Source: Candidatus Saccharimonadota bacterium
GTDB taxonomy: Bacteria; Patescibacteriota; Gracilibacteria; Absconditabacterales; Absconditicoccaceae
Direction of reading: 5' to 3'
Assembly: GCA_030429145.1 (NCBI GenBank)
Contig: JAUIDC010000001.1
Location: 480,001-512,000, forward strand
Length of the DNA: 32,000 nucleotides
Shown here: one piece after another, positions 6,302 to 31,865 of the stretch
Position numbering within the stretch: position 1 is the stretch's first letter
Layout: each line of letters starts with the position of its first letter
The notes under the pieces: model-generated
Databases searched by the model: none
Seen by the model: the letters and a program-made list of their open reading frames with translations, nothing else
What the model was told of the DNA's origin: nothing
Position numbers and translations under genes: made by a program

Positions 6302-6327
6302 GAGCCTTGCAAGAGATAAAGAGCATG

Positions 6328-7479
6328 TTATTGTTTTTGTTGTACATTTCTTAGTTTGTAGTAGAGTTGGTGTATTGGTGTGTAGATACGGAGTAATGAC
6401 TTCCTAAAGGCTATAATATCCTCATAATAGGCAAGTAGCCCAATATGGATAGGAAAGGCAGCCTGCATGTTTTGGAGCGTTTTCTCGGTAAATGCGACTG
6501 CTTCCTCACTGAGAGCAACTTCTTGCCTGAGGCGCATCCTTTCCTGGTCTGCTTCCATAGATGTGTCACTATAAGCGCGGAATTTGTTGTATGCTGGGAA
6601 TTGGAGCTGTTCGATGGTTATAGTAATGAATAGTTTGTAGAAAAGCAGTTCATTGTAGAGGAGATTGTGGAAAGACTCTCGAGAACTTGTGTTGAGGTTG
6701 CTGTTGTCAAAGGCACAGACGAGGAACTCTTTTGATGTCTCAGTACATTTTTTCCCCTGTGCTGTCAATAGTCTTCACGCATCGACATAGTTGGTCTGCT
6801 CTGTAAGTGTTTGTGCTTGTTGGATGAACTGTGCAAGGACATTACGTGTTTGTGGATGGAGACAAGGAGCCTCTTTTTCAGATCCTTGCGTTGCTCCAAG
6901 ATAGGTGACATTTTTGCTACCACAGATGCTATCACCAGGTCCAAAATAGGTATCTGAGAATGCCTTAATAGCTTCGTCAATAGATCATTCCTGGTAGCTA
7001 TAGAGCTGAGCGAGCTTTATCTTGCTGAGATCATTCATGACGATGGCAAAGAGCTGAGGGAAGAAGCTAGCAAGATCACATGAGGTCATGTCTCCATCTC
7101 GTTTGCAACCCGCAATCTTTTCTTGCTCTCGGTCAAAGGAGTTTGCATATTGCTTTGCTAGCTCAGATTGCTCGCTGTGGGTACAAAGTATGCTAAGAAA
7201 GAGAGATTGCTTTGGATCATAGTAGAGCCCTGGTGCTGCCGGATCGGTAAATCCTTGTGCCTCGGCCGTTGCCTCACAGTAGGCTTCTATCAGTCACTGT
7301 CTCGATGTATTCCCTTCGAGTCCTAACGACACATTGGTCATAAGGTTGTTCACGAAACCCTCTTTTGTGGTGTCTTCTGAGTATCCTTTTGGTACATTGC
7401 TGAAAACAACTGCGCTTGCGAGTGCAAGAGTAGCGATGCATAGTGTACTCATAAAGATAATCTTCTGACGTTTGTGCAT
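6328..7479 (-). CDS. 383-aa signal-peptide protein, largely helical with several Cys, family not recognised
   Basis: Starts MHKRQKIIFMSTLCIATLALASAVVF. Track ORFs 7294..7479 and 6328..6768 are in frame. Gap 6769-7293 read codon by codon has TGA only (7294, 6985, 6775). The stop is TAA at 6328-6330. Confidence 0.75.
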
Positions 7480-7496
7480 GGTCTCTTATAAATATA

Positions 7497-8867: not shown

Positions 8868-8888
8868 AGAGAGAGTATGAGATAAAGA

Positions 8889-9740
8889 TTAGTTTGAACA
8901 CATTCTTGTCCCTTCTTGCACTTTTCCGTTAACTGATGAGAAGGTTTCATTGATACGAGAGAATTTATCTATGAGTGTTGCCCGTCTTGTTTCGAGAAGG
9001 TAACTTTTTGTATATGTTTCCCAGACATTGGTCATGAGAGTGTTACTTTTTCTTACCATGAGTGTTTGTATGTATGTCATTTCATCTTCGATGCGTCTTT
9101 TTGCGAGATCTTCACATCAAGCGAGGTTGTAGCGAGAGTCGAGATCACTAGTCGTTACAAAGAACTTACTTGTGACGCAAGCTGCTTGTCTACATACCGC
9201 CGTATATCTTGTTGCGAGATCAAGATCACCGTAGTTTTCTATCTGGCAAGTGTTGTTGTTGATGCGAGCTTTGTATCGGCCTGCTGGGTCCCGTACTTGT
9301 AGAAATGTATTTTGTAGGCTTACGGGAGCATTTCATTTTCCATCGTCTTCTCGTTCTTTGAGCTTTGTTGCCCATTCGTCTCCTTTCGAGTCTTTGCTAT
9401 CACCAAGTTGATCATCAAGTTTGAAGAATCATCTACTCACAAGATGGTCAAAGATATATGGGCTTTCTGCGTTGCTAGTGTTTTGTGTCGGTCCTTCACA
9501 CTCGTTTACGATGGATCCTATCTGACAGCAATATGATTTCAGATCTGCCAGCGCTCCTTCAAGGTCATCGCTACTCAGTGGATTAACAGTAGTAACATTG
9601 ATAGAGCTGAGCGGGTTGAAGTTCTCATTTGCTACCAAGCTACAATCATACAAAATATCAGCACTCGCAAAACTGCTGGCGATGGCCAGTCCTACGAGAG
9701 AGATAGATCAAACTGCTTTATAAAGCATCTGTCTTTGCAT
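8889..9740 (-). CDS. 283-aa signal-peptide, Cys-containing protein, family not recognised
   Basis: Starts MQRQMLYKAV[TGA]SISLVGLAIASSFASA, 5 nt after the giant gene's TAA. Track ORFs 9429..9653 and 8889..9080 are in frame. Gap 9081-9428 has TGA only (9333, 9117; also 9708 and 9429). The stop is TAA at 8889-8891. Confidence 0.75.
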
Positions 9741-9745
9741 GATTT

Positions 9746-18700: not shown

Positions 18701-21442
18701 ATTTGCTGTTGCAGAAGCAACAATCTTTTCTTGGTTGATAGAAGAGACAATAGCAGGTGTTGTAGTATTCTCTATGATATCATTACCATCGGAATTGATA
18801 TAGACTAGTTCATATCATTTTGGTTCGTATTCAGGCGTGATAGCAGAGGAAGGGTTATCATTTTTAGTAAGATATTGTTCCACGACGTATCCAATCTTTT
18901 TGTTGATATCCAAAGAGGACTGATTGTTTTGGAGATCAGTCATCAGGTCATTTGATGCTGGTTTAGTATATCGTCAAAGGTTATGTCGGTGGAGTATTTG
19001 TGCGACCTCGTTAATGGTGTTTTCTCCAAGTACGTTGATGAAGAAGTCGCTAGGAAGAGTATTGTAAGAGCGTCATTTAGGCGATGCGAACTGATCTACA
19101 GTTGTCAGCTTGTCATAGGCAGCAGCTCTTGATGCATAATAGCTCGCTGCTTTTGTGTTTTCCTGTGAGAGTGTAAGATTGATCGCTGTCACCTTTTCTT
19201 GTAAGTATTGTTTGATAGCATCTGCAATTTCGGCAGGAGATTTAAGTGTGAGCGTATCATTGTTTTTATTGTAGACTTCGACATTGTAGATGTTTGGATA
19301 GTCAAATCTGATTGCGCTTCCTCAGATACCTTTGAAAGCAACATAACGAGTGCTGTCGATAGGTCTGTCTTGGGTAAGAGGATTCATATTTTCGATTTGC
19401 TCTGGAGTCGGAGATGTATGAGACTCTAATGTACTGATGGTTTTATAAACATAGTTGTCTCCACAAGCTTCAGGGCTTGTGTTCTGATTGTTATTTGTTA
19501 AGTGTACTCTCGAAGGAGATGATTTATATGTAGCGAAATATTCAACGCTTCCTGGTTGCTTCTGAGGGTAGCCATTGTACCGGTTTTCATTTACTTCTCC
19601 TGGAGGAACTGTCTTGCCACATACAAGCCAAGGAGCAACGCGATACTGTTGTGTTCTATGTAAGAGTGAATTGGTTAACTCTTCAAGAAAGTACATCTCT
19701 TGACTCATTTTTGTGAGAGTCATTTTAGAACCAGCAATATCAAAGACAGGTCAACCAATGCTTGTGTCAAAGCGAGGATTCCATGCCATCTTTGGATTGT
19801 TTTGTTTGAGTTGCATAGTATCTCCATCGATATTGAGAGGACTTATACCTCCCCAATATTTAGTTACAAAGTCATCTATCTCTTGGCTTGCTCTACACTT
19901 TCTATCTTCATAAAATTTTTGATCACTTGGTACAAGCATCGTATTGTAACCTCTAGAACTTTCTACCTGCCTAGAAGAGATACCATAAGAAGCTCCTATA
20001 GATCTGGCTGTATAATCAACATCGATATCATCTTGGTCTCCTTCGGTTGTATAATCATATGTTGTCAAGTTCTGTCGACTTCAAATATTCTTCCATGTGC
20101 CTGGATAGATAGATATATCCTGTGTTGAAGAAACATCGTAAGCGCTTCTTCCAAAATAGAAATTTTCAAATCTCTCTTCCACGAACTTCGGTAACAATGG
20201 AGGCGGTGCACCACATCTGACTTTTTCATATACAAGAGGAATAGGGATGTGCAGATCGTAGTTTTCTGTATCTAACTTATTGTAAAGTGCATCTTCAAGT
20301 AACGAGTTTGCATCTAGTAGAACCACGCTTGTAATATTGTCTTTGAGAACAGTCTTTTTGATGTGGCTATCAACGTCCGTATCAGACCATCTTCCACCAG
20401 CTTTGACATTTTCAGATATACTTGTAAGAAACTCGGGTGTGAAGAGACTCGTATAAGGGTGTACCAGTCCTCAAAGTGACTGTCCGATCATTAGTGTCGG
20501 GATCCTGTCGCTGTCACCTCCGACTTCATTGAGGTCTGCGTCAGCTTCTTGAGCCATCCTATTGAGATTGTTCTTTCGGCTACTGATAGTAGAGTTATAC
20601 TGTTCTCCGATCTCTCCAAGTTCGCTATAATCATCATCTGTAGGTAAACTGTTGTTTGCTGTATAGTTGCTGACCAGAGACACAGCGCTTTCATTCGCTC
20701 CATCTTTAAAGTAGTCTACTATGAGGTTAGTAAACCTATGATAGGTCATGTCTTCATGAAAGAGGAAGCTATTGGTATATCACGATAAGAACTGATCAGA
20801 AAAATATTTCTTGAGTCCAATAAAGTCGTCGTATCGTATTTTATTGCTTGCATAAGCTGCTGGATTTTGATCGTAGTTCCTTAGTTTTTGAAAGAACTCC
20901 GCATATTCAGCCGTGTCATCAAACTGTATCATACTTTGTCGGATGTCTGCTTTTTGATCTCCGTTTTCGTGTGGGACAAAGTAGGTAGAGCTTGGGTCAA
21001 ACACATATGTGGGTTTTTCGAGGTCGGTATATGGGTATATACTTGGATAGACGTAGTTATTTTCTTTGATAACAGGAAGCGGAAGGTCTCCTATGAGGAT
21101 AGTTCCTATCAGTGCTGACTTCTTTTCTTTGATGCCTTCCTGATAGAGATTTTCCAGCATCTTCCATATGTCTGTAGATTGGAAATTATCTTTGTTGATA
21201 GGCATAAGTAGGGCTTTGGTCATCGAACTGCGCTTTTGTAGGTGGTTTTGCGCATACCAGTCGATGTCGCTACGATATTGTTGATAGATGTTTCTATCTA
21301 CAAAGACAGCTATGATAGATTCTGCTGATTCGTCTGCTGCCTGAGCTGTATTACTAAAGCCAAAAATCCACTGTGTGAACGAGTGGGAGAAAAAATATAT
21401 ACCTATCAATATACCTATACTTACTTTGGTTTTTACCGACAT
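9746..21442 (-). CDS. Giant 3,898-aa secreted surface or adhesin-like protein with bacterial Ig-like and FG-GAP-type repeats; translated with UGA=Gly
   Basis: At least 17 track ORFs from 20780..21517 down to 10238..10615 lie in one frame (end coordinate mod 3 = 1). I read every inter-ORF gap codon by codon and found 51 in-frame TGA, no TAA/TAG and no frameshift. The preferred start is MSVKTKVSIGILIGIYFFSHSFTQWIFGFSNTAQA (ATG 21440-21442), which reads as a signal peptide. The stop is TAA at 9746-9748. Confidence 0.85.
12593..12907 (-). repeat. Periodic Pro/Ile/Leu/Asn-rich segment inside the giant protein
   Basis: About 105 aa read IDLPVLPIPNFRIPNINIDLSNINLGMDIVLPKFNFVPLNVPLPRVPDLPTPPTIDLETNLNVSIPQIPVLPMPPTLPELPSFIPNIELNLPTLPPAPRIPKIAP. 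It is preceded by a Cys knot, KCGKCKVDNYDFYSCTLSLLC. Confidence 0.6.
15464..16135 (-). other. FG-GAP/VCBS-like Asp-rich repeat region inside the giant protein
   Basis: Repeats of the DxDxDG type: DLDRSGQKDLLVIYTDGSVRILKN, GDADGNSYEDIIVQTNKDTLRVYKN and DMDNDGSIDIVTNDTL. One more copy lies near 11400 (NDLNGDAKEDIILWD). Confidence 0.55.
16928..18352 (-). other. Bacterial Ig-like (invasin/Big-type) repeat region inside the giant protein
   Basis: Segments typical of Big domains: VAGYDTYGNKVEQTTTTYRLTTS, LTLTDTNGNPLDSTAIVRSTNGLLIPGS and MVYDRRNNPVSSTTTVNITAIGDITINGNKNTSVSTDEDGVGSFTIDSGKIGGNHYLYAEI. A further Ig-like unit lies at about 10238-10615 (ISATDNQGNVASSNINISW). Confidence 0.6.
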
Positions 21443-21550
21443 GAACCAGAGTACTATACAAAGAACCTTACAATGCCTCTTTTCTATGTATATACAGCAT
21501 AATTGCAAGCGTTCCACCTACCAATCCTGCATAAATAATATGTAGTATAT

Positions 21551-21585
21551 AAAAAAGTCCCTTCTGTGAGAGAAAGGACTTTTTG
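21551..21585 (-). terminator. Rho-independent terminator after the fibre-protein pair (symmetric A-run/T-run, could act in both directions)
   Basis: The sequence aaaaaAGTCCCTTCTgtgagAGAAAGGACTtttt has a 10-bp stem with one mismatch and a 5-nt loop, flanked by an A-run and a T-run. It lies 34 nt downstream of the TAATAA stop at 21616-21621. Confidence 0.6.
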
Positions 21586-21618
21586 TTATATGAAAGCACA
21601 CATTTTACTTAGCTTTTA

Positions 21619-23511
21619 TTACTCGTTTTCGAGAGCAGTGACTCTTGCTTCTAGTGCATCAATGGCTGTGGCATTTGTCACATACTGATTGTAGAGATCG
21701 GTAACCGTTGGGTTTTCTCCACCTCATTCTGATCCACCGTATGTTGTATTAAGATCTGTTGCTCTTTGATCTAGCTCTTTGATGGCTTGGATAACAAGAC
21801 CTATCAAGTTTGCATACTCAACAGACTTGTAACCATCTTCATCTGTATGAACGATCTCTGGGAATACGTTTTCAACCTCTTGTGCAAGAAGACCAATGTC
21901 AGCTCTTCCGCTTGTTTTCCATGTAAATGTATATCCTGTAAGACTATCAATCTTGCTGATAGCACCAGTAATAGGCGTTATACTTTCCTTGAGTGTTTCA
22001 TCTGAAACGATGTATGTAGTATTTGCAATGATATCTCCACCTACATGTAATTTTACCTGAGGATTTGCAACACCGATACCGACAGAACCTCCGTTGTAGT
22101 AGATGGCTCCATTTGAACCTGACATCCACATGCTATTAAGAAGGTTTGAGATAGATGGTACGAGTACCACATTACCAAGACCGTCTACACCAAGATTTCT
22201 AATACCATAACCTGCATATGAAGAGAAACGTACGTTACCGACAACTTCAAGAGCAGCAGCAGGGAAGAGAGTGTTGATACCTACACGAGCGGCAGCAGCG
22301 ATGAATGAAGAAGCTGCGTTACTTACCTGTACGCTACCAGTATTGAGACCTACATTGTAGTAGAATCTTACTGGTTGACGTGTAGCAGGAGGGTTGCTAC
22401 TTACAGGGTAGTTAGAGTCGTTTTGTCCATCAGCAACATCGACACAGTAGGCTGCACTATGATTTGAAACGATACTGCTACCACAGTCATTAGTTGACGC
22501 TGATGTATCACAGTCACATCTTGGGAAATTTGACCAGAATGTATACTGGTATGGTTGTAATTCTGTATAGACATCTACGCTAGTACCAAGATTGTCAACT
22601 CATCGAGCAGGATATGCATATGGCAAGAATGCAGAGCTCAGATGGATAACTCCCATCCACAATGCAGCACTTGAAACATGGAAACCTTCTGCACCTGTGA
22701 GCACGAAAGAGTATCCACCGCCGCCTGTCGTTGGTAGCATCACACTACCACTCATGTCTACTCTCAGAGCGCTATCTACATGAAGCTTTGCCATAGGAGT
22801 ATCTGTTCCGACACCGACGTTACCATTGCTATCATGAAACCATGTTCAGTAGAAAATATCATTGGTCCCTGAAATTGCATGCCATAGAGACGATCCTCCT
22901 GGGTTTTGCAATCATCCTGAACTGTAATTACATATAATGGTTCCGGTAGATGACCACCCTTGGACATATCAGGTTGAGCCGCAGTCTCCTGTTCCAATAA
23001 TTGGAGCACATTGTGCTGCACCGTTTGAGATACCTATCATGGTCTCTCCAGCTCCACAAGTGAGCGTTACTGTACCAGTAGCACCTCCACCTGTTGAGAA
23101 ATTGATACCAGTAAGGTGCCCTGTGGTGATCGTTCCAGTGGCGATATGGATTCCTGAGATGGTATATGGCTGGATGTTGCTGCCATTGATAAGATCTCTC
23201 ACGATATACCCATCTGCATCTGTTTTGAGTACACCTCCAGTTGGACCTCCCAACGCTGCTGGATCTACCCAGATACCTGTAGAACTGAGTATCACCTTAT
23301 TGTCTCCTTGTGGAGAACCATCAGTGGTGATGCGGAGCTCTTTAATGGTTTGTATCACATTGTCGATAGACGACTGTATCTGTAGATCAGCATGTGTGAT
23401 CGATCATCGTAGACCAGTCAAACCAACCAGTGCAAGTACAACCATGACTCCCTTCATGAAAGGATGACGTGGAAGATGATTTCCTAAATCAAATGTGTGC
23501 TTTTTTGGCAT
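21619..23511 (-). CDS. 630-aa fibre-like surface protein with a C-terminal peptidase S74 (endosialidase-type intramolecular chaperone) domain
   Basis: Track ORFs 22969..23358, 22600..22794 and 21724..22170 share one frame. The gaps have TGA only (23404, 22969, 22912, 22846, 22600, 21724). N-terminus: MPKKHTFDLGNHLPRHPFMKGVMVVLALVGLTGLR[TGA]SITHA. Repeated GNVGVGTDTPMAKLHV-type motifs. S74 signature: YIVSDETLKESITPI...IGLLAQEVENVFPEIV...VEYANLIGLVIQAIKEL. The stop is a double TAA at 21616-21621. An alternative start is the internal MKGVM. Confidence 0.8.
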
Positions 23512-23562
23512 TTTGAGATCAATAATGATTAAAGAATTTTTATGTTAGTATGATGATTGATA

Positions 23563-26500
23563 TTATTCTGGCAATGTTCCATCTCGTTTCATTCCTCATT
23601 CGAGGGCGGAGATACGAGCTTCAAGTATTTGTAGTTCTAGATTTTGTTGATCGAGTCTTGCTTGTCACGCATCCAACATCTTTGTATGTATTTCTTTGAC
23701 TGCCTGGATGGCAACAGCGATGAGATTATAGTATTCAACTGCTTTTCTTTCTGAACCATCAACTAGATTGAATGTTTTCACAAGGTCAGGGAAGACAGCT
23801 TCTACATGCTGAGCAATAACACCGATGCTTGATCTACCGTCGAGGATCCAGCTAAATGATACGCCTGTAAACTGTTGGATACCTGTAGCGGCATTTGTCA
23901 GAGGTGTGATATTTTCTTTGAGTGTTTCATCAGAGACAATATAGTTTGTGTTTGCAATGATGTCTCCCGCTACATGTAGTTTTACAACTGGTCAACTTGT
24001 ACCTATACCTACATTTCCTCAGTTATAATAAAGTCACTTGGTTCCAATTTGCCATAACCCAGCAGACTGTCCATTGAGATCTCCAGTAGTGAAAAGGTCT
24101 CCTTGGTTGTCGACACTAAGATATGAGTAGTTTGTATTGTTGAGATTGGTGAAACGGACATCACCTACAACGTCAAGTGCTGCTTGAGGGGTCTCTGTAT
24201 TGATTCCAATTTTACCTCCATTTGCATAGAAGATAGCACCTTGATAGTGTACTGAAAGTGCTCCAACAGTACCAGCGCCAGGCATGACTGCTTTGTCTAC
24301 AAGAGCTTGTATCATACCGTCGCCATCTACTCTGAGAGTAGGAATGTCTCCTGTAGAGATGATCGTACCAGTAGAACCTACCGAACCACTAAGGAACGAC
24401 CCAGTGAGACTTGCAGCCCATCGATATCTTTCTAGCTTTCGACCAACAGTACCTGAATGCATACTGTAGTTCGTTCCGTTTGCTCGAGTGATATCAATAC
24501 AGTTAGGTCCTATATAGTCTCCAGTAAAGTATGGAGCAGGATTGTTGAATATAGGAGAGAATGGTCTGTTGTTTACACTGTGACTTCCGTTACCATTGTA
24601 GCTTGTGCGCACAAAGTCGTAGTATCTGTTTGCATATTGGCTATTGAGAAGAGGACTCATGTTGAAGTATCCTTGATATGGTGCTCCAGATGGAAGTGGA
24701 GGATAGTTCATAGATGGCCATGCTATATTTGGAAAGTGTGAGTTCATCTGACCTCCCGCTGTCGCACAGTCTGCTGAGTTGTCGTCTGCATCACATTCAC
24801 ATCTTGGAGGAACAGGAAGCACCTCGGCTGCATATCGAGAACCGTCGGGTTGCCAGTCGCCCATTTTCATTGTATAGATGTTGTTTGCAAATGTGATATT
24901 GAGGCGATGCATAAATGCAGCTCCATAAGGATAGTGTGTTGCTCCAGTTGTTACTGTTCGTCCAAAAGGAGCTCCTCCAGAAGGTGGTGCTGCATTGAGA
25001 GCGAGGTCGACACACCTCAGTAGTCCTATATGATATCCACTTGTTGCAGGAGCATAGTATGTTGTTCCGTATGGAGGAGTTCCGTTTGTTCCACAGTCTT
25101 CTGTGTTGATGTCGACATCACATGGACACTGGTAGACAGGCTCCTGAGATCCTCGTGTGAAGAGCTGTTCAAGAGTGTGAGGCACTTGAGCATACAGTGT
25201 TGAGCCTGTTGCATAACTAGGAGGAGTCGCTGCTACCGCTCATGAAATAACAGCCGGTCCTGTTGAAGGTGATGAGACATGAAGTCTTACTAGTGGGTTG
25301 TCGGTACCAACACCGACCTTTTCGTTGACGATGCCTCCTGAAACTATCAGAGTTCCTGATACATAACCTCCGCTATAGAGATCAAAGACTTTATCCATTT
25401 TTGCGAGGGTGTATTGCTTTGCTGCGTTTGGAAGAACGTCGTCGCTAATGTCGTAGCAGTGAGGACCGAGATCGCTACCTGTCCACACATAGCCGTCAGA
25501 CGGAGACCGAGGGATAGTAGGGTAAAGGAGGTTCATTTGTTTTCCAGGCACATTACACTCATTTCCTGTTCCTACGTCACATCCACATCTTGGAGGTAAG
25601 TTTCCTACAGTGTTTGGAGATGGAGAATAGTTCAGGTAGTAAGTGCTACCCGATAGAGAAATATTCATAGAGTGTTGGGTCACTTTATTGTTTGTTGTAT
25701 CAATGTCATAACATGACTGTTGACCTATATAGAAGAAATACTGAGAAGTAGGTCTTGAGTAGGTAGCAGGTACATTACATGCTGCATCAGTACTAGTGAT
25801 GCTACTATCACAAGGACACTCGTATCCTTGATAGTATTGTCCGATAGGTGCTGAAGCATAAACCGAATATCCAGTCCCTGCAACATATCCTGTGACAAGG
25901 CTATACACACCGCCCGCGCCAGTACCATAATAGATGTCGTTAGCATTACTAGGTGTTTGTTTCCAGTAGTCACCATTGGCTGCAGAGAGTACGCCTCCTG
26001 TTAAAAGACAGTTCGGACTGCCAATGCCTGACCGTCATATAAACGATCCATTTGAACAGAGGGGAGAAGGTATACCACTTACTAAACCTGCTGGTGCACA
26101 TGTAGCATTACCATTGGTAAATGAGATGATTACCTCTCCACTTGGACAAGAGCCATCATTTACTGTAAGAGTACCAGCTCCTATATAATTGTAGATATTA
26201 AATCCAAGATTTCGCACGGTGATGGTTCCAGTAGCGATAGAACTACCAGTGATACTATAAGGAGAAAAAGCACCTCAAGTTATTTTATCTGATCTTAAGA
26301 AAATTCCTTCAGGAGCAACTAAGACTCTCTCATTTCCTAGAGAAGGATGGAGTCTGATAAGTTTGTTGTTTGTTCATGAAAGCTCTACTATGGCCGTGCT
26401 ACTTTGATCTCCGTCTTGCGTGATCATTAGCTTTTGCAAGATAGGAAAAGATCTTGTAATGCTTGAGTCCAGTGTTAGAGCATGGACGCTTCCAAATACT

Positions 26501-26589
26501 AACAAACTGCCTAAAAATGCTAGGCCAAGCAACTGAAGTCTGTTGAGTGATGTACGGTGCTTTCTGTGCTTTCTGTGCTTTTGTTTCAT
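23563..26589 (-). CDS. 1,008-aa fibre-like surface protein; longer paralog of 21619..23511 with an internal module duplication and a C-terminal S74 chaperone domain
   Basis: Track ORFs 26374..26589, 26035..26217, 25240..25908 and 24034..25185 share one frame. The gaps have TGA only (26374, 26275, 26035, 25240, 24034, 24019, 23992, 23665, 23596). Signal peptide: MKQKHRKHRKHRTSLNRLQLLGLAFLGSLLVFGSVHA. S74 signature: YIVSDETLKENITPL...IGVIAQHVEAVFPDLV...VEYYNLIAVAIQAVKEI. The stop is TAA at 23563-23565. Confidence 0.8.
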
Positions 26590-26932
26590 TATACCCAGAA
26601 ATGAGTGAATAAAAGCTCTTTTTTCTCACATACAATAGTATGTAATCATATTGAATTTGCTGTTTTTGTACTATTTTAAGATGAAAAGTGTATAGCAAAT
26701 AGCAAAAACAAGAACCAATGTAGTTAAAAAATGATACAATATAAAACTGCCAGTATGTGCTAAAATGCTTCATCAGAACGTCTTTTTTAGATGTTTGCGG
26801 GCTGGTATGATTTATAAAAATGAAAATTTGCTAACTACATTATATCAGAGCCTATTGAAACATCTTGATAAGGGTGCGGATTCTTGTATAAGAAAGGTGT
26901 TATAGTAGAGGTTGTTCTGCTATAGTAAAATA

Positions 26933-26960
26933 TTGACTTTCTTTTGATTGTCAGTATAAT
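26933..26960 (+). promoter_or_regulatory. Near-consensus sigma-70 type promoter (TTGACT-N16-TATAAT) facing the S8 peptidase gene
   Basis: TTGACT sits at 26933-26938, followed by a 16-nt spacer and TATAAT at 26955-26960, about 130 nt upstream of the ATG at 27090. It is identified by sequence match only, in an AT-rich intergenic region. Confidence 0.4.
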
Positions 26961-27089
26961 ATTATTGTCCCTCTTTGGGGATATGATCATTAACAGTTAC
27001 TCTTGTTGAAACAATATATTTAGAAGGTAATAGAGCGGCTACTCTATACTTTTCTCATCACAATTAATTAATGCAAAAAAGAAGAAATT

Positions 27090-30000
27090 ATGAAAAAAAC
27101 AATTTTAATGGTGATGGGGATATTGATTAGCTTTGCTATCCTTCCATCACGAACGATGGGGCAATATGCCCAACCACAGATCATACCAGACTCATTTGTT
27201 CAGGATGAGCTGGTAATAATTACTAAAACTCCTGTTGTTTGGGACGAATGTTCTCAGTCTATAGAAGGAGTTATGCATTCCCTGCCCATGGGAAGTACAA
27301 TCGTAGGTTGTGCCGATAAAGCTCTTTTTAAACAAGACGCAGAATCCACAGCTCAAGGTATGTATGTAGGGACTAGCTTCCTTGTGAAGTTGCCTACAAG
27401 CTCTCCTTACTCTGATGCACAGAGTGCTTTACACTATGTGCAGGAGTGTTTACAAGAACCGACGAGTATTATCTCTGTCGTAGATGTAAATAGGGTAGGT
27501 GCGTTACATGCTTCTTCTCCTGTGTCATATAACGATCCTGAGTTTGCTAACTCTCAATATCATCGTAAATATGATTTGACAGCCATAGCAAATGGTGTGA
27601 AATATACAGGATGGCAGCATGCTACTGGCTACAAATTTAAGAACACTTCTAAAGTTTTGATAGCAGTACTAGATGCTGGACTGAGATTTACTCACCAAGA
27701 TGTTCAAAATGCATACTGGGTTAACTCATCAGAGTCTTCAAATTCGTCTGATGATGATAGCAATGGTTATGTTGATGATATCAATGGCTGGGATTTTGTT
27801 AATAATGATAATGATCCAACCGATGATAATACTGGGAACTGGCATGGAACGCATGTGTTTGGCATTATAGCTGCTAGAAACAATAATAGTTACAATATTT
27901 GCGGGATGATTACTGACACGTTATCTACTATGGTTTTGAAAGTTGGTAACGCATCAGGCAGTGTAACTGATTTCTGGACAGCTTCAGGTTATAATTATGC
28001 CTTGGCTAAAGGAGCTCGTATTATGAATATGTCCTTTGGCTTTAATAATTCACCTACGCTTCTTATGAATGCGATAGCGAACGGTGTAGCAAACTACAAG
28101 GCTGTTCCTGTAGCATCTGTTGGCAACACAGGTAATCAATATTATGGATATCCTGCCTCAGGTGCTAATGTGATTACGGTAGGTAATGCTAGCTATGGGG
28201 GGACACTTTATACTGGCTCTAGCTATTCAGATAGTGTAGATGTAACTGCTGCGGGTGTTTCAGTTCGTTCCTTATTGGGAAATAGCAATACGGCGAGCGG
28301 TAATCTTACTGGTTCGTCTATGGCTGCACCTCATGTAAGTGGCTTCGTATGGTGGATCCTGAAAATGGATACATCATTGACAGTGCAACAAGTGACTCAG
28401 AAAATCCGTTCTATGGGTATGAATGGGTCATTTGTCTCTGGTCAAGGTTGGGGTTATGTTGTTGGGTTAGATACATTGTGTTACAACACGATGATGCCCG
28501 ACACAAGCGTTACTCTCTCTAAATGTGGGGGAATGCAACCTCTGCCTGTTACGAAAGTGTTCCAAATAGTAGATAGTGAGCGTTATGGTGTGTCATGGAT
28601 CGTAAATGATTCAGTTAACACAAACGTTGCTCCTACTGGGACATTTGACTACAAGATGGCCTGGGAATCTGCACCAAGAAGTTCGGTGTCATACAATGAT
28701 ACCTTTAGGTATGGTAATAAATACCTACACTTTACTGTGTCTGGCTCAGGTGGTACGACACCTTCTACCACAGTTCTTTCTTCAAAGGACACAATGTGCG
28801 TAGGGGATACGCTTCATATTACACGTGGAGGAAACACTGCTAATGCCAAGAGAAAGTGGTACAAAAATTCCACTTTGGTAGACACTTCGGTTGTCTATAT
28901 TGATACAGCAACTACAGCAGGCGTCGACACCATCAAGTTGGTCGTAGATCTTTCTACGACAGGGACTTGTTGGACTAAAGCGTATGACACGACAACTAAG
29001 TTGATCGTTAAAAACGCTACTGTTACGCCATCTGTATCTATAAGTGCTAATCCGGGCAATACAATCTGCTCGGGTACGTCAGTGACCTTCACTGCGTCGC
29101 CAACCAATGGAGGCTCTTCACCGAGCTACCAGTGGAAGGTGGGTAGCACAAATGTGGGTACCAATAGCAATACATATACTTCATCAACGTTATCAAACAA
29201 TGATGTTGTTTCATGTATTATGACTCCTACTACGGGAGGGTGTTATACTTCTTCAAGTGCGACATCAAATACTATTACTATGACCGTGAACACACCGGTA
29301 ACTCCATCAGTGAGTATCTCCGCTAATCCCGGTAATACAATCTGTGCGGGCACCAGTGTGACCTTCACTGCATCGCCAACCAACGGTGGCTCCTCAGCGA
29401 GTTACCAATGGAAAGTGAATAGCAGTAATGTTGGTACAAATAGCACAACCTTTAGCTCATCAACATTGTCTAACAATGATGTTGTAAGCTGTGTGATGAC
29501 AACTTCTTTAAGTTGTGTTACATCGGGTAATGCTACTAGTAACACGGTTACTATGTCAGTGACTAACAACGTGACACCAACGGTGTCTATAGCTCCTACA
29601 AGCACAACTATTTGTGAAGTAGGTGGGTCTGCTACATTGACAGCAAGCACTACTATCAGTGGTGTAAGTTATCAGTGGTATCGTGGCACTACGCCAGTCG
29701 GTACAAATAGCAATACTCATAATGTTTCTGGTATCTCACCAGGCACACATAGCTATACCGTTCAGATCACTGTGCCAAATGGATGTTTTACGTCCAGCAC
29801 GGCAACCAGCAACACGGCTTCTATAACTGTGAATGCTGCAACACCCGTAAATAGTTCTGCAAATGCCTCATCGCTTTCCATCTGCAATACGGTGGGAGAT
29901 ACGATCACTGCTAATTGCAGTGTGACTGGTGCTACCGTTCTTAAATGGCAGCACGATGATGGCACTGGCTTCGTAGATGTGATAGGTTCAAATGGTACAT

Positions 30001-30692
30001 ACTATGCACCAAGTGGTCTGTCAGGCGGTACTCACAAGTATCGTGCAATCTATACCATGCCAACCGGCTGTTACACTCAAGATAAAGATACAACTAACGA
30101 AGTGTCTATTAGTGTGACAGAAGCACAGGCTTTCACTGCTTCTTTAGCAGGTACTGATGCTTTTGTGCAAGCAGGTGTGTGGAAAGGGCTTTATACCCTT
30201 ACATTACCTGTCGGTTTGACAAGCTATACTGTAAAATGGTATCGTATCATCAATGGTCAGCCTGTTCTACAGACTACCTTGAACGATATAAAAACTTGGG
30301 TACGTGATCCTTTGGATAACGACCACCCAGACACTGTTTACGCAGTGGTGATACCAAAAGGGTGTTGGGACAAAGATTCTACACTTACCAATCAGGTCAT
30401 TGTGACCGCTTCGGTAAGTGTAGCCGCACTTCCCAAGCTGTCTGATGACTACCGCATATATCCTAACCCTGCAACTACCCAGTTATTCATAACCGGGTTG
30501 AAGCGTGATGATCGTATGATCATGACCAATGCAGTTGGACAACAAGTTCTACAGTACACGTTTGTACAGGAGAATAATCCTACACAAATTAATCTGTCTG
30601 GACTTCCCAACGGCATCTATATGGTGAGATTCATCTCTCATGATGGACAACCATACGCAGGAGGCGGAGCAAAAATAATCAAACAAGAGTAA
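27090..30692 (+). CDS. Subtilisin-like serine peptidase (family S8) with tandem Ig/PKD-like repeats and a T9SS (Por) C-terminal sorting domain, 1,200 aa
   Basis: The ORF is uninterrupted in the standard code. Signal peptide: MKKTILMVMGILISFAILPS. S8 triad motifs: AVLDAGL (Asp), WHGTHVFGIIAA (His) and GSSMAAPHVSG (Ser). The C-terminus YRIYPNPATTQLFITGL...LSGLPNGIYMVRFISHDG...KIIKQE matches the T9SS secretion-tail pattern of Bacteroidota. The stop is TAA. Confidence 0.9.
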   Translation: MKKTILMVMGILISFAILPSRTMGQYAQPQIIPDSFVQDELVIITKTPVVWDECSQSIEGVMHSLPMGSTIVGCADKALFKQDAESTAQGMYVGTSFLVKLPTSSPYSDAQSALHYVQECLQEPTSIISVVDVNRVGALHASSPVSYNDPEFANSQYHRKYDLTAIANGVKYTGWQHATGYKFKNTSKVLIAVLDAGLRFTHQDVQNAYWVNSSESSNSSDDDSNGYVDDINGWDFVNNDNDPTDDNTGNWHGTHVFGIIAARNNNSYNICGMITDTLSTMVLKVGNASGSVTDFWTASGYNYALAKGARIMNMSFGFNNSPTLLMNAIANGVANYKAVPVASVGNTGNQYYGYPASGANVITVGNASYGGTLYTGSSYSDSVDVTAAGVSVRSLLGNSNTASGNLTGSSMAAPHVSGFVWWILKMDTSLTVQQVTQKIRSMGMNGSFVSGQGWGYVVGLDTLCYNTMMPDTSVTLSKCGGMQPLPVTKVFQIVDSERYGVSWIVNDSVNTNVAPTGTFDYKMAWESAPRSSVSYNDTFRYGNKYLHFTVSGSGGTTPSTTVLSSKDTMCVGDTLHITRGGNTANAKRKWYKNSTLVDTSVVYIDTATTAGVDTIKLVVDLSTTGTCWTKAYDTTTKLIVKNATVTPSVSISANPGNTICSGTSVTFTASPTNGGSSPSYQWKVGSTNVGTNSNTYTSSTLSNNDVVSCIMTPTTGGCYTSSSATSNTITMTVNTPVTPSVSISANPGNTICAGTSVTFTASPTNGGSSASYQWKVNSSNVGTNSTTFSSSTLSNNDVVSCVMTTSLSCVTSGNATSNTVTMSVTNNVTPTVSIAPTSTTICEVGGSATLTASTTISGVSYQWYRGTTPVGTNSNTHNVSGISPGTHSYTVQITVPNGCFTSSTATSNTASITVNAATPVNSSANASSLSICNTVGDTITANCSVTGATVLKWQHDDGTGFVDVIGSNGTYYAPSGLSGGTHKYRAIYTMPTGCYTQDKDTTNEVSISVTEAQAFTASLAGTDAFVQAGVWKGLYTLTLPVGLTSYTVKWYRIINGQPVLQTTLNDIKTWVRDPLDNDHPDTVYAVVIPKGCWDKDSTLTNQVIVTASVSVAALPKLSDDYRIYPNPATTQLFITGLKRDDRMIMTNAVGQQVLQYTFVQENNPTQINLSGLPNGIYMVRFISHDGQPYAGGGAKIIKQE
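29025..29570 (+). repeat. Two adjacent, highly similar repeats of about 90 aa (Ig/PKD-like modules) within the S8 gene; more diverged copies continue to about 30130
   Basis: TPSVSISANPGNTICSGTSVTFTASPTNGGSSPSYQWKVGSTNVGTNSNTYTSSTLSNNDVVSCIM... aligns with TPSVSISANPGNTICAGTSVTFTASPTNGGSSASYQWKVNSSNVGTNSTTFSSSTLSNNDVVSCVM.... Later units keep the C...YQWY/KWQ...GT...C pattern. Confidence 0.8.
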
Positions 30693-30714
30693 TTGATTTC
30701 AATGAACATAACAC

Positions 30715-30746
30715 AGCGCTCGGTATTGTCCCGAGCGCTTTTTTTG
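30715..30746 (+). terminator. Rho-independent terminator after the S8 gene
   Basis: AGCGCTCGGtattgtcCCGAGCGCT is a perfect 9-bp GC-rich stem followed by a T-run. It starts 23 nt after the TAA. Confidence 0.85.
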
Positions 30747-30882
30747 TTGGAGGAGTGTTTTTGTGCAAAAAATTATTGTAATGGAAGACCACTTCTTTAT
30801 ATTGGTAGTTCGCGCAGAGAGAGAACTTTAAATGGTAAAATTCGATTAATTAACAACAAAAAGTACGAGAAATAGAATAAAT

Positions 30883-31638
30883 ATGCTAATTATCCTGCGT
30901 CGAAATGCGAAGATGCACGCGTGCTGGGTTTTGATCCTGGCGGGCTGTGCAAAAACGGGATACGATGGAAAATATGGCGTTTCGCCTTTATCATCGCCCC
31001 AATTAATGCCCAATACAATAGGGAGTGAAATGAATCAACTTCCTAATGACATGGACTCTATCAACATTCATACTGTTAACGAAGATCAACCAGCAGAAAG
31101 TTATTCTGATAAAGCTGGTTCATATATTGATTCTTCACTTGCTCAGTCTATATTCCAAGATGTGTTTGCTCAGGGTGAAAACCTCTGGGGGAGCTATTTC
31201 ACTGACGGACAATTTGTGTATGCTCACATGGTTCGTCGGTATATAGAAAGCAAGTATAACATAGAGTGTAGAAAACTGTTCATATTTGGTGACATTACAG
31301 CAACCTCTTTACGGTATGATTGCTGTGCAACATGGAGTTATGATGTTGCCTGTGTCTTACTAGGGAAAGAAGGGCGTCTTTACGTCATCGATCCAAGGTT
31401 ATTTAACTCGGTAGTGTCAAAAGATGTTTGGATGCAAGCACATGTCTCACCAACAATGTGCGAGCCGTATCCGATCATCTCGACATCAGAGCTAGTCTCT
31501 GGGGAGAGTCTCTTCCCACTGGGTGGGCCATCACTAGGCTATAAAAAAGATCCTGACTATCAAGCTGCTGAAGCCTGGAAGGGCTACTATGCTGATAGCA
31601 CAGGGTGTGGCTGTGTGAATGCCCTCGCTGTAAAGTAA
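30883..31638 (+). CDS. Protein-glutaminase-like lipoprotein (catalytic Cys and His positions appear substituted)
   Basis: The lipobox VLILAGC follows a basic N-terminus; an alternative start is the Met at 30913. The core DGQFVYAHMVRRYIESKYNIECRKLFIFGD...CCATWSYDVACVLLGKEGRLYVIDPRLF aligns, from my memory of the sequence, with Chryseobacterium protein-glutaminase DGCYARAHKMRQILMNNGYDCEKQFVYGN...CCVAWSYHVAILV...KRIIDPSLF. The ORF has no TGA and stops at TAA. Confidence 0.7.
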   Translation: MLIILRRNAKMHACWVLILAGCAKTGYDGKYGVSPLSSPQLMPNTIGSEMNQLPNDMDSINIHTVNEDQPAESYSDKAGSYIDSSLAQSIFQDVFAQGENLWGSYFTDGQFVYAHMVRRYIESKYNIECRKLFIFGDITATSLRYDCCATWSYDVACVLLGKEGRLYVIDPRLFNSVVSKDVWMQAHVSPTMCEPYPIISTSELVSGESLFPLGGPSLGYKKDPDYQAAEAWKGYYADSTGCGCVNALAVK

Positions 31639-31657
31639 ACCATATTCTCTCTGCGCA

Positions 31658-31683
31658 AACGCCCCGCTTCCGGGGCGTTTTTC
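31658..31683 (+). terminator. Rho-independent terminator after the glutaminase-like gene
   Basis: AACGCCCCGcttcCGGGGCGTT is a 9-bp GC-rich stem with a 4-nt loop followed by TTTTT. It starts 20 nt after the stop. Confidence 0.85.
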
Positions 31684-31831
31684 TCTTGCTTTTTTAGAGT
31701 TGTTCCTTATAGTCTACGTCACGTTGTTAATTAATGAAAAAAATGCAGGTAACGACAGGATAAAGTTTGCCAATTTATAAACCTGAAATTGGCAGATAGG
31801 CATTATTTCATGGTGATAGGGTTTATAGTGT

Positions 31832-31865
31832 AAGCGCACTGGGTTTTCCCAGAGCGCTTTTTTTA
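31832..31865 (+). terminator. Orphan terminator-like hairpin with a T-run; no ORF of 60 aa or more lies upstream
   Basis: AAGCGCACTGGGttttCCCAGAGCGCTT is a 12-bp stem with one mismatch, followed by TTTTTTT. Confidence 0.5.

What the first reader, a model, noticed from the sequence alone, without database searches (positions are those of the whole stretch)
26590..31700. Abrupt switch from a UGA-recoded block to TGA-free Bacteroidota-type genes: assembly chimera or very recent horizontal transfer
Left of about 26.6 kb, TGA occurs at roughly 1 per 100 codons. The two plus-strand genes on the right total about 1,450 codons and contain none. At the left-hand rate about 15 would be expected.

The content of the right-hand genes is taxonomically diagnostic. 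One has a T9SS C-terminal sorting domain; that secretion system is found in Bacteroidota. The other is a homolog of Chryseobacterium-type protein-glutaminase. Each is followed by a strong GC-rich hairpin terminator, and I found only one weaker, mismatched terminator-like hairpin in the left block.

There are two explanations. The contig may be a mis-join or mis-bin of a CPR and a Bacteroidota genome. Alternatively, a code-25 organism may have recently captured host-like genes. Both genes end in TAA, so they would still terminate correctly, and a sigma-70-like TTGACT-N16-TATAAT sits upstream at 26933-26960. The second explanation would be biologically notable.
Basis: partly seen in the sequence, partly recalled or inferred. 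Interest (0 to 1): 0.8.

Follow-up and report, generated by a model that had tools for sequence, protein, structure and literature searches.

The report
Conserved TGA-free genes in code-25 bacteria
Two secreted-protein genes inside a bacterium that reads the stop codon TGA as glycine have stayed completely free of TGA in at least six diverged relatives, so this is neither an assembly error nor a fresh gene transfer but a long-maintained gene pair that can be read correctly in both genetic codes.

Summary
The two plus-strand genes (27090-30692 and 30883-31638) have 0 TGA in 1,453 codons, against about 15.6 expected. Their identities, the promoter and the terminators are as described.

Both interpretations fail. 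A 111 kb public contig identical to the window shows TGA=Gly housekeeping genes (trhO, hflX, sufS, folD, rnhB) resuming 1.2 kb to the right, so the pair is an island inside a code-25 genome. The same pair sits at the same position in five other diverged genomes, one of them a 1.1 Mb chromosome. Synonymous sites are saturated between these genomes and tree topology matches the flanks, which indicates vertical inheritance.

In all six genomes both genes lack in-frame TGA: 9,014 codons against about 143 expected. Out-of-frame TGA is normal, and flanking orthologs gain and lose TGA freely. In the closest genome pair, 0 of 110 conserved Gly sites carry TGA, against 36 expected (P about 1e-19). So selection specifically excludes the reassigned codon from these two genes, which keeps them readable in both codes.

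The protease keeps its catalytic residues and its T9SS sorting domain. The "glutaminase" has lost its catalytic Cys and His. Two S8 homologs nested in the clade lie outside the clade's conserved context, one clearly in a non-CPR genome. Why TGA is excluded is inferred, not shown.

The parts
371..26649 (-). Left recoded block: nine tightly packed minus-strand genes. They include a 3,899-codon surface protein (9746-21442) and two Peptidase_S74-tailed proteins (21619-23511, 23563-26649). Together they hold 91 in-frame TGA=Gly.
   Evidence: Orthologs in the other genomes also carry TGA.
26933..26960 (+). Near-consensus sigma-70 promoter (TTGACT-N16-TATAAT) for the S8 gene. It is conserved in all six genomes.
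   Evidence: 11 of 12, best in the window; TTGAC[T/A]/TTGAAT and TATAAT are invariant or nearly so across six loci.
26963..27089 (+). Conserved structured 5' leader of the S8 mRNA: hairpin 1 (26969-26980), the core TTAACAG(C)TTACTCTT (26990-27004), and hairpin 2 with a CGGCAA-type loop (27027-27049).
   Evidence: 5 of 6 hairpin-2 pairs show compensatory changes. No Rfam match.
27090..30692 (+). S8 subtilase gene: 1,200 aa, with a Sec signal peptide, a catalytic domain, Ig/PKD-like repeats and a T9SS type A C-terminal domain. It has 0 in-frame TGA and a TAA stop.
   Evidence: D195, H252, N346 and S410 are invariant in eight family members. dN/dS is 0.15.
30456..30644 (+). Region encoding the T9SS type A C-terminal sorting domain (aa 1123-1185).
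   Evidence: PF18962 and TIGR04183 score above their cutoffs. The domain is kept in all six CPR orthologs.
30715..30739 (+). Strong bidirectional intrinsic terminator after the S8 gene, conserved in all six genomes.
30811..30825 (+). 5' arm (CGCGCAGAGAGAGAA) of the inverted repeat that brackets the second gene.
   Evidence: Complementarity to the 3' arm is kept in all six genomes although the sequences differ.
30883..31638 (+). Lipoprotein gene with a protein-glutaminase fold (251 aa; lipobox ILAGC). The catalytic Cys is replaced by Gln110 and the catalytic His by Asp154. It has 0 in-frame TGA and a TAA stop.
   Evidence: dN/dS is 0.25.
31645..31656 (+). 3' arm (TTCTCTCTGCGC) of the inverted repeat that brackets the second gene.
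31657..31680 (+). Strong intrinsic terminator after the second gene (10 pairs, 7 of them GC), conserved in all six genomes.
31686..31857 (+). Right boundary: a promoter-like site (TTGCTT-N16-TATAGT), a conserved GTGATAGGGTTTATAG motif and a further terminator. This is a short, unannotated transcription unit. Recoded genes resume at about window-equivalent position 32.8 kb.
   Evidence: The continuation in L001 shows trhO, hflX, the sigma factor, sufS, folD, rnhB and nhaA with 1-7 TGA each.

Best explanation
The segment is a true part of the chromosome of a code-25 (TGA=Gly) bacterium of the Absconditabacteria/Gracilibacteria radiation. It carries two separately transcribed genes:
- an active S8 subtilase with Ig-like repeats and a T9SS type A C-terminal sorting domain
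- a lipoprotein with a protein-glutaminase fold that has lost its catalytic Cys and His

The pair was probably captured long ago from an FCB/Bacteroidota-type source. It has since been inherited vertically at the same chromosomal position in at least six diverged lineages. Purifying selection keeps it free of in-frame TGA, although TGA supplies 6-29% of the Gly codons in all neighbouring genes. In these two genes TGA behaves as a forbidden, nonsense-like codon, so both remain correctly readable under code 25 and under the standard code.

Shown:
- chromosomal location, synteny and vertical descent
- frame-specific TGA exclusion despite saturated synonymous turnover
- purifying selection on the proteins
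- native-looking sigma-70 promoter, leader and terminators

Inferred: the products must be made where or when UGA is not decoded as glycine. I favour translation in, or continuing exchange with, standard-code partner (host or prey) bacteria that have a T9SS. Two observations point that way. The sorting signal is conserved although, as far as is known, only such cells can use it. And S8 homologs that nest inside this clade sit outside its conserved context, one clearly in a non-CPR genome. The main alternative within this explanation is bldA-like: translation in the CPR cell at a stage when tRNA-Gly(UCA) is unavailable.
For: 1. It is an island, not an edge. L001 is 100% identical to window 20883-32000 and extends 9.6 kb further. 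Every ORF beyond the pair again carries TGA, and TGA=Gly was verified on FolD and SufS.
2. Synteny is conserved. The order S74 genes(-) | S8(+) Gln(+) | trhO hflX sigma sufS folD rnhB appears in L002 (OZ246420.1, 1.107 Mb chromosome), L004, L005 and L006. L007 has it with a local rearrangement.
3. The pair has 0 TGA in 9,014 codons across six genomes, against about 143 expected from each genome's own Gly codon usage. TGA is normal in frames 2 and 3 (7-10 per kb). All 12 stop codons are TAA or TAG.
4. TGA turns over quickly in the five flanking housekeeping orthologs: 47 of 90 invariant Gly columns carry TGA in at least one genome, mostly in a single lineage. In S8 and Gln the figure is 0 of 41, although GGN codon identity is only about 0.3.
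5. In the closest pair, L002 and L005, dS is 2.25 for S8 and 1.4-3.1 for the flanks. Conserved Gly sites: flanks 326, with 75 TGA in one genome and 32 in both. Pair: 110 sites, 66 with changed GGN codons, 0 TGA. Expected 36, P about 1e-19. dN/dS is 0.15 and 0.25.
6. Topologies agree. Flanks: (L002,L005) 100%, (WIN,L004) 53%. S8: both splits at 100%.
7. There is no strong codon bias: ENC is 52-56 against 50-54 in the flanks.
8. Seven further lineages of the small glutaminase subfamily are also full length with no TGA signature.
9. In a census of 73 long ORFs in seven clade loci, 61 contain TGA. The TGA-free ones are the six S8 genes, four glutaminase-like genes, one chance case and one mobile-type ATPase.
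10. The C-terminal sorting domain is retained in 6 of 6 CPR orthologs. P0005 and P0008 nest inside the CPR S8 clade (100% bootstrap) but lie outside its conserved context. P0008 sits beside GC-rich DNA with an OsmC-like gene, and both copies differ in composition from the CPR copies.
Against: - The promoter is canonical sigma-70 and resembles other promoters of this clade. It is not the Bacteroidota TAnnTTTG type, so DNA-level expression in a Bacteroidota host is not supported.
- No transfer machinery or mobility genes lie next to the pair.
- I could not test whether the CPR genome itself has a T9SS, or another use for the C-terminal domain.
- Only about 175 kb of the clade's DNA was examined, so I do not know how many other TGA-free genes exist genome-wide. 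One other was seen (L012 ATPase).
- The glutaminase-like gene has no close standard-code relatives.
- P0005 sits on a 3.7 kb MAG contig and could be mis-binned.
- Trees are neighbour-joining only, and sample metadata are unknown.
- The reason for TGA exclusion is inference. Nothing here shows where the proteins are made.
Confidence: 0.7

Rival explanations
1. Assembly chimera or mis-bin: a Bacteroidota fragment was joined to a code-25 contig.
For: Abrupt loss of TGA at about 26.7 kb, Bacteroidota-type domains, and a mild tetranucleotide outlier (r 0.70 against 0.74-0.94).
Against: - Recoded genes lie on both sides.
- Identical junctions appear in an independent 111 kb Logan contig seen in two samples, and both proteins sit on a 936 kb NCBI contig.
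- The same arrangement occurs in five other diverged genomes, including a chromosome-level 1.1 Mb assembly.
- The promoter, leader and terminators around the pair are conserved within the clade.
Confidence: 0.01
2. Very recent horizontal transfer from a Bacteroidota donor: too little time has passed for TGA codons to arise.
For: Zero TGA, T9SS sorting domain, some codon-choice differences from the flanks (for example CTC 0.08 against 0.29, AGA 0.20 against 0.40).
Against: - The orthologs are syntenic in six lineages with saturated dS, and S8 identity among them is only 38-62%.
- GC and GC3 match the host.
- The closest S8 relative outside the clade's conserved context is 53% identical and nests inside the clade.
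- The closest glutaminase relative outside the clade's own small subfamily is about 31% identical.
- There is no integrase, tRNA gene or direct repeat at the borders.
Confidence: 0.03
3. Recurrent replacement: the resident copies are repeatedly overwritten by TGA-free alleles from standard-code bacteria or dual-code phages. The TGA-free state would then reflect gene flow, not selection within the CPR lineage.
For: S8 homologs from outside the clade's conserved context (P0005, P0008) interleave with CPR sequences in the tree, so exchange has happened. Phages of these bacteria that lack in-frame TGA are known (PMC10746230).
Against: - The S8 topology matches the flank topology, and S8 dS matches flank dS in the L002/L005 pair.
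- The CPR-specific promoter, leader, terminators and inverted repeat flank each ORF. Two separate intragenic replacements per event would be needed.
- The glutaminase subfamily has no close relative outside its own small subfamily among 1.84 billion representatives. The genomic context of seven of its lineages is unknown.
- No close relatives of either gene occur on viral contigs.
- P0005 and P0008 differ in GC from the CPR copies, so they are not recent donors.
Confidence: 0.12
4. Ordinary translational selection: the pair is very highly expressed, as the consensus promoter suggests, and avoids TGA because tRNA-Gly(UCA) decodes it poorly.
For: The strongest promoter match in the window, strong terminators and a structured leader suggest high, regulated expression.
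Against: - There is no general codon bias: ENC is 52-56, slightly above the flanks, and Gly codon use among GGN is more even than in the flanks.
- TGA is not a rare codon here. It supplies 6-29% of Gly codons and sits at invariant catalytic-site glycines of FolD and SufS.
- Proteomics of a BD1-5 bacterium detected 40 peptides with UGA=Gly although that population was only 2.8% of the proteome, so abundant proteins do contain it (PMC4032931).
- Total exclusion over 9,014 codons would need selection far stronger than typical codon bias.
Confidence: 0.1

Closest known systems
Code-11-compatible phages of Gracilibacteria and Absconditabacteria (Liu et al., mBio 2023, PMC10746230)
   Same: These are genetic elements associated with code-25 bacteria that lack in-frame TGA and terminate at TAA or TAG. 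They can therefore be translated correctly under both codes. The authors infer an advantage in keeping standard-code compatibility.
   Different: Those are whole phage genomes predicted from spacer matches. Here it is two chromosomal genes, vertically inherited in conserved synteny and surrounded by TGA-rich genes, with direct comparative evidence for selection against TGA. No phage genes are present and no relatives occur on viral contigs.
bldA/TTA codon-restricted regulation in Streptomyces (from general knowledge; not tested here)
   Same: The presence or absence of one specific codon in a gene decides whether it can be translated when one tRNA is missing. Gene sets are defined by one synonymous codon.
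   Different: In Streptomyces a rare codon marks a few late genes. Here a common reassigned codon is missing from two genes only. I have no data on regulation of tRNA-Gly(UCA).
Stop-codon-recoded phages with standard-code early genes (work cited as refs 20-23 in PMC10746230)
   Same: One genome is partitioned into blocks that do and do not contain a reassigned stop codon, which is thought to tie translation to the state of the decoding machinery.
   Different: That is a phage in a standard-code host, with recoding in the late genes. Here it is a cellular genome with the reverse polarity and only two genes.
T9SS type A cargo subtilases of Bacteroidota
   Same: The architecture matches: signal peptide, S8 catalytic domain, Ig/PKD-like repeats including a CHU_C-associated Ig domain, and a C-terminal Por_Secre_tail domain scoring above the curated cutoffs.
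   Different: It is encoded in a CPR genome, where a T9SS (which needs an outer membrane) is not expected. The family is restricted to this clade plus two copies outside its conserved context.
Chryseobacterium proteolyticum protein-glutaminase (PDB 2KSV, 2ZK9, 3A54-56)
   Same: The fold and family are homologous (PF18626). The Asp of the triad and the surrounding motifs (RR, WxYxVA, IDPxLF) are kept.
   Different: The catalytic Cys156 is replaced by Gln and His197 by Asp. The score is 55 bits against a 250-bit equivalog cutoff. The long pro-region is absent, and the protein is a lipoprotein of about 245 aa. It is probably non-catalytic or has a different chemistry.
Agrobacterium T-DNA (analogy for the novel reading only; from general knowledge)
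   Same: Genes are kept in a parasite's genome but carry features suited to the partner's expression and sorting machinery. Occasional copies become fixed in partner genomes.
   Different: No transfer borders or transfer machinery were seen, and the promoter here is of the bacterium's own type.

Membership tests
Code 25 (TGA=Gly) genome: flanks on both sides | In-frame TGA in conserved genes aligns with Gly, not Trp, in homologs | tested here: met
   FolD (RVGxD, PxGVGP) and SufS (FGGGE, LYGP) against PDB homologs. In flank orthologs, Gly is by far the commonest residue opposite TGA.
Code 25 (TGA=Gly) genome: flanks on both sides | Phylogenetic affiliation with Absconditabacteria or Gracilibacteria | tested here: met
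   SufS hits named Absconditabacterales, SR1, Gracilibacteria and Vampirococcus lugosii at 52-57% identity. OZ246420.1 is labelled Candidatus Peribacteria by its submitter.
Subtilase (MEROPS S8) | Pfam Peptidase_S8 above the gathering score, with the catalytic Asp, His, Ser and the oxyanion Asn present | tested here: met
   122.5 bits against 21.8. D195, H252, S410 and N346 are invariant in the eight-member alignment.
T9SS type A cargo | C-terminal Por_Secre_tail / TIGR04183 domain above the curated cutoff | tested here: met
   PF18962 41 bits against 27, and TIGR04183 32.8 bits against 23. Present in 6 of 6 CPR orthologs.
T9SS type A cargo | T9SS machinery (SprA/PorV/PorU, GldKLMN) encoded in the same genome | not testable with these tools
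   Only about 24-42 kb per genome could be fetched, and no whole-genome access was available. No T9SS gene occurs in the fetched loci.
Protein-glutaminase (EC 3.5.1.44, Chryseobacterium type) | Family domain (PF18626) | tested here: met
   44.1 bits against 25.
Protein-glutaminase (EC 3.5.1.44, Chryseobacterium type) | Catalytic triad Cys156-His197-Asp217 | tested here: not met
   The alignment to 2KSV/3A56 puts Gln110 at the Cys and Asp154 at the His. Only the Asp (D170) is kept. The nucleophile Cys is absent (Gln, or Ala in the L007 type) in all 13 lineages, and the His is replaced except in the L007 type. The Tannerellaceae outgroup keeps Cys and His.
Protein-glutaminase (EC 3.5.1.44, Chryseobacterium type) | NCBIfam equivalog score (NF040782) | tested here: not met
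   55.4 bits against a cutoff of 250.
Recently acquired genomic island | Deviant base composition relative to the host | tested here: inconclusive
   GC and GC3 equal the flanks. The tetranucleotide correlation of 0.70 is just below the null range of 0.74-0.94. The RSCU correlation of 0.41-0.69 lies within the range of individual flank genes.
Recently acquired genomic island | Mobility signatures (integrase, tRNA target, direct repeats) and absence from close relatives | tested here: not met
   No tRNA gene and no integrase or transposase domain in the neighbouring genes. The pair is present at the same site in all six clade genomes whose locus covers this position.
Dual-code (code 11 and code 25) compatible element, in the sense of PMC10746230 | No in-frame TGA, and termination at TAA or TAG | tested here: met
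   0 of 9,014 codons, and 12 of 12 stops are TAA or TAG.
Dual-code (code 11 and code 25) compatible element, in the sense of PMC10746230 | Being a phage or prophage | tested here: not met
   The pair contains no phage genes, and no relatives occur on IMG/VR contigs. The adjacent S74-tailed proteins are TGA-rich.

The most novel reading that the evidence does not exclude
Cross-code expression. The cassette is kept readable by standard-code ribosomes because its mRNA or DNA reaches the cytoplasm of a standard-code host or prey cell that has a T9SS. There, the host's Sec pathway, lipoprotein pathway and T9SS would export the protease and the pseudo-glutaminase lipoprotein to the host's own surface. 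This would be a bacterial parallel to T-DNA. The copies of the S8 gene found outside the clade's conserved context would be occasional integrations left behind by this traffic.
Probability: 0.12. Interest if true: 0.95.

Novelty: new variant of a known kind. Interest (0 to 1): 0.8.

Why it matters
Alternative genetic codes are usually seen as a wall. Genes cannot leave a recoded genome because their reassigned codons read as stops elsewhere. Here two chromosomal genes in a code-25 lineage have been held on the readable side of that wall over a long evolutionary time, while every neighbouring gene drifted across it.

This gives three things:
- A clean natural measure of how quickly a reassigned codon spreads through genes, and of how strongly selection can forbid it in particular genes.
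- A concrete, testable candidate for communication across genetic codes between an uncultivated CPR bacterium and a standard-code partner. The secretion signal points to T9SS-bearing bacteria as that partner.
- A practical warning. Genes like these get mislabelled as Bacteroidota or binned apart from their genome, and gene callers that pick one code per contig hide the pattern.

I found no prior report of chromosomal genes in code-25 bacteria that are kept free of the reassigned codon.

Tried and rejected
- Phage or prophage reading of the left block. The S74 tails suggested it. I rejected it because housekeeping genes with TGA=Gly lie on the far side.
- TGA=Trp (code 4). Rejected by the alignments. 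Some database gene calls do translate TGA as Trp.
- Sequence-motif avoidance, such as a nuclease site. Rejected because TGA is normal in frames 2 and 3.
- Strand or replication bias. Rejected because same-strand neighbours carry TGA.
- Shine-Dalgarno difference between the pair and the flanks. Neither uses one, so it is uninformative.
- Bacteroidota-type promoter upstream. Not seen by eye (no systematic pattern scan). The promoter is canonical sigma-70 and conserved in the clade.
- Exact-protein look-ups for the S8 product and the two NCBI products failed because of different start calls.
- GTDB and JGI scans with the glutaminase alignment returned only genomes I already had.
- Viral scans gave no close relatives.
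- Rfam found nothing at either the gathering or the permissive threshold.
- Sample accessions are absent from the literature library.
- L012, a seventh clade member, ends before the position of the pair.
- The original SR1 paper (PMC3619370) is not held.

Full report
**1. The observation**

Under the standard bacterial code, the window left of about 26.7 kb breaks into short ORFs. If TGA is read through, it resolves into nine tightly packed minus-strand genes, among them one of 3,899 codons. These genes hold 91 in-frame TGA in 8,623 codons.

The two plus-strand genes on the right are 27090-30692 and 30883-31638. Together they have 1,453 codons, 121 Gly codons and no TGA. From the flank rate, 15.6 TGA are expected (P = 1.6e-7). 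As a share of Gly codons, P = 4e-9.

- Gene 1 has Peptidase_S8 plus Por_Secre_tail, and the T9SS type A sorting domain TIGR04183 scores above its cutoff.
- Gene 2 has Gln_deamidase_2.

The promoter at 26933-26960 is the best sigma-70 match in the window. The two strongest terminators follow the two genes. No tRNA or Rfam family is present.

**2. It is an island inside a code-25 chromosome, not an edge**

An exact look-up of the second protein returned a 111,393 bp Logan contig (ERR3428547_6724, seen in two samples). It is 100% identical to window 20883-32000 and continues 9.6 kb further right.

Beyond the pair lie trhO (UPF0176/rhodanese), hflX, an ECF-type sigma factor, sufS, folD, rnhB and nhaA. 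Each is interrupted by 1-7 in-frame TGA. Alignments of FolD and SufS to solved structures place these TGA at conserved glycines and never at Trp, so the genome uses code 25.

SufS places the organism in the Absconditabacteria/Gracilibacteria radiation. Named relatives are 52-57% identical, and unnamed members of its own clade are 69-76% identical. Both proteins of the pair also occur on a 936,577 bp NCBI contig.

A chimera would need two mis-joins that are reproduced in independent assemblies.

**3. The pair is conserved and syntenic in diverged relatives**

The next-best S8 homologs are only 38-53% identical. Their contexts could be fetched for five further genomes:
- L002: OZ246420.1, a 1,107,293 bp chromosome-level MAG
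- L004: JGI metagenome 3300020156
- L005, L006 and L007: Logan assemblies

All show the same neighbourhood: S74-tailed surface proteins on the minus strand, then S8 and the glutaminase-like gene on the plus strand, then trhO, hflX, sigma, sufS, folD and rnhB. In L007 two S74 genes lie between the two genes of the pair.

Re-calling genes under code 25 shows the S8 orthologs (1,039-1,344 codons) and the glutaminase-like orthologs (about 250 codons) have zero TGA in every genome. Nearly all flank genes have TGA, at 0.25-4.9 per 100 codons.

**4. The TGA-free state is maintained by selection**

- Across six genomes the pair totals 9,014 codons with 0 TGA, against about 143 expected from each genome's own Gly codon usage.
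- The depletion is frame-specific. TGA trinucleotides occur at 7-10 per kb in frames 2 and 3.
- All 12 stop codons are TAA or TAG.
- In the five flanking housekeeping orthologs, 47 of 90 invariant Gly columns carry TGA in at least one genome, usually only one, so TGA and GGN interchange quickly. In S8 and Gln the count is 0 of 41, although their GGN codons are just as scrambled (pairwise identity about 0.3).

The closest genome pair, L002 and L005, gives the sharpest test:
- dS is 1.4-3.1 in the flanks and 2.25 in S8.
- Of 326 conserved Gly sites in the flanks, 75 have TGA in one genome and 32 in both.
- Of 110 conserved Gly sites in the pair, 66 changed codon and none is TGA. Expected 36, P about 1e-19.
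- dN/dS is 0.15 for S8 and 0.25 for Gln, so both are functional genes.

Tree topologies agree. The flanks give (L002,L005) at 100% and (WIN,L004) at 53%. S8 gives both splits at 100%. This supports vertical descent.

ENC is 52-56 for the pair and 50-54 for the flanks, so there is no general codon bias.

An exhaustive search of 1.84 billion representatives found only a small glutaminase-like subfamily: eight other clusters at 43-52% identity, plus the L007 type at 34%. The seven lineages not already in hand are full length and show no sign of TGA.

**5. What the genes are**

The S8 protein:
- has a Sec signal peptide
- keeps invariant catalytic residues D195, H252, S410 and the oxyanion N346
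- carries several Ig/PKD-like repeats and a textbook type A C-terminal domain
- retains that domain in all six CPR orthologs despite about 40% overall identity

The second protein:
- is a lipoprotein, with a lipobox Cys conserved in 13 lineages
- aligns to mature protein-glutaminase with Gln110 at the catalytic Cys and Asp154 at the catalytic His; the triad is Cys156-His197-Asp217 according to PMC4214742
- lacks the catalytic Cys in every lineage of the subfamily (Gln, or Ala in the L007 type), and has Asp in place of the His in all but the L007 type
- has as its nearest outside relative a Tannerellaceae protein that keeps both residues

So it is a pseudo-glutaminase, or an enzyme with a different chemistry. 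It is not a Chryseobacterium-type protein-glutaminase (55 bits against a 250-bit cutoff).

**6. Expression signals**

All six genomes share the following:
- a near-consensus TTGAC[T/A]-N16/17-TATAAT promoter
- a leader of about 110-130 nt, with two hairpins that covary around an invariant TTAACAG core
- strong terminators after both genes
- an 11-14 bp inverted repeat that brackets the second ORF, with different sequences in different genomes

The promoter resembles the clade's other promoters and is not of the Bacteroidota type. Neither the pair nor the flanks use a Shine-Dalgarno sequence. So transcription, at least, looks native to the CPR cell.

**7. Gene flow**

Two partial S8 homologs from NCBI MAGs nest inside the CPR S8 clade. 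The clade of six plus P0005 plus P0008 has 100% bootstrap, and P0005 groups with WIN and L004 at 100%.

- P0008 lies next to GC-rich DNA that encodes an OsmC-like protein, and it lacks the clade's regulatory sequences.
- P0005 is labelled Bacteroidetes and also lacks those sequences.
- Their GC content (0.49 and 0.47) differs from the uniform 0.43 of the CPR copies.

The family has therefore crossed between this clade and genomes outside it at least once, and not recently. Only a TGA-free gene could make that crossing and stay functional.

**8. Interpretation**

An ancient capture from an FCB/Bacteroidota-type source remains likely.

The new and robust result is gene-specific, long-term exclusion of the reassigned codon. 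The reason is inferred. I favour a need to be translated where UGA is not read as glycine, for three reasons:
- a sorting signal is conserved that, as far as is known, only T9SS-bearing cells can use
- S8 homologs nested in the clade occur outside its conserved genomic context
- the exclusion is absolute, which makes TGA look like a nonsense codon for these genes

A bldA-like scenario is the main alternative. Recurrent replacement and expression-driven codon bias are weaker rivals, for the reasons given under each.

The native-type promoter argues against simple DNA-level expression in a Bacteroidota host. The missing whole-genome census is the main gap.

**9. Literature**

The closest published idea is that some phages of these bacteria avoid in-frame TGA and so remain compatible with both codes (PMC10746230). 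Searches for T9SS in these phyla, and for TGA-free chromosomal genes in code-25 bacteria, found nothing.

Noticed in passing
window 26963-27089 (and L002, L004, L005, L006, L007 upstream of S8): Conserved structured 5' leader between the promoter and the S8 start codon. Two hairpins have stems that differ in sequence but stay complementary, and they flank an invariant TTAACAG core. Hairpin 2 has a CGGCAA-type loop. There is no Rfam match, so this is a candidate new cis-regulatory RNA.
   Followed up: partly
window 30811-30825 and 31645-31656: An 11-14 bp inverted repeat brackets the pseudo-glutaminase ORF, one arm in the 5' UTR and one just after the stop codon. It is present in all six genomes with different sequences (duplex dG -24 to -35 kcal/mol). 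It may be a long-range mRNA stem, such as a processing or stabilising stem.
   Followed up: partly
window 31686-31857: A short unit between the pseudo-glutaminase and trhO has its own promoter-like site, a conserved GTGATAGGGTTTATAG motif and its own terminator. Counterparts exist in L002, L005 and L006. It could be a small RNA. It is not a tRNA and matches no Rfam family.
   Followed up: partly
window 30883-31638: The 'protein-glutaminase' has lost the catalytic Cys (now Gln110) and His (now Asp154). The Cys is absent in all 13 known lineages of its subfamily, and the His is replaced in all but the L007 type. It is a lipoprotein and is likely a pseudoenzyme.
   Followed up: yes
L012 840-3284 (-), Logan SRR31724218_3098076: Another long TGA-free gene in a genome of the same clade: a DUF87/TrwB-like ATPase with 815 codons, 47 Gly codons and 0 TGA. 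Its neighbours have 3-17 TGA each. It is absent from this position in the window's genome. It may be a mobile-element gene that is also compatible with both codes.
   Followed up: no
L011 (GCA_018267925.1 JAFDXO010000169.1) and L013 (GCA_035911835.1 JAMILU010000696.1): S8 homologs that nest inside the CPR clade sit on short contigs of non-CPR MAGs. One is labelled Bacteroidetes bacterium. The other lies next to GC-rich DNA with an OsmC-like gene and is truncated before the C-terminal domain. This is evidence of old gene flow, or of mis-binning in the first case.
   Followed up: partly
L002/L009 (OZ246420.1): A chromosome-level 1.107 Mb MAG labelled 'uncultured Candidatus Peribacteria bacterium' clearly uses TGA=Gly in this region. 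Its SufS-type relatives are Absconditabacterales/SR1, so the taxonomic label looks imprecise.
   Followed up: no
window 21619-23511 and 23563-26649 (-): Two paralogous surface proteins end in a Peptidase_S74 (intramolecular chaperone) domain, which is typical of phage tail fibres. They lie directly beside the pair in all genomes and are rich in TGA. In L007 they lie between the two genes of the pair.
   Followed up: partly
window 9746-21442 (-): A giant 3,899-codon secreted protein with 51 TGA=Gly codons. By eye it contains FG-GAP/VCBS-like repeats. Its orthologs in the other genomes are 57-65% identical. I did not scan its domains.
   Followed up: no
P0125-P0129 (database proteins): Some public gene calls for this clade translate TGA as Trp (code 4), which puts Trp at conserved Gly positions. 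Others use code 11 and fragment the genes. Both hide the code-25 signal and the TGA-free exceptions.
   Followed up: yes
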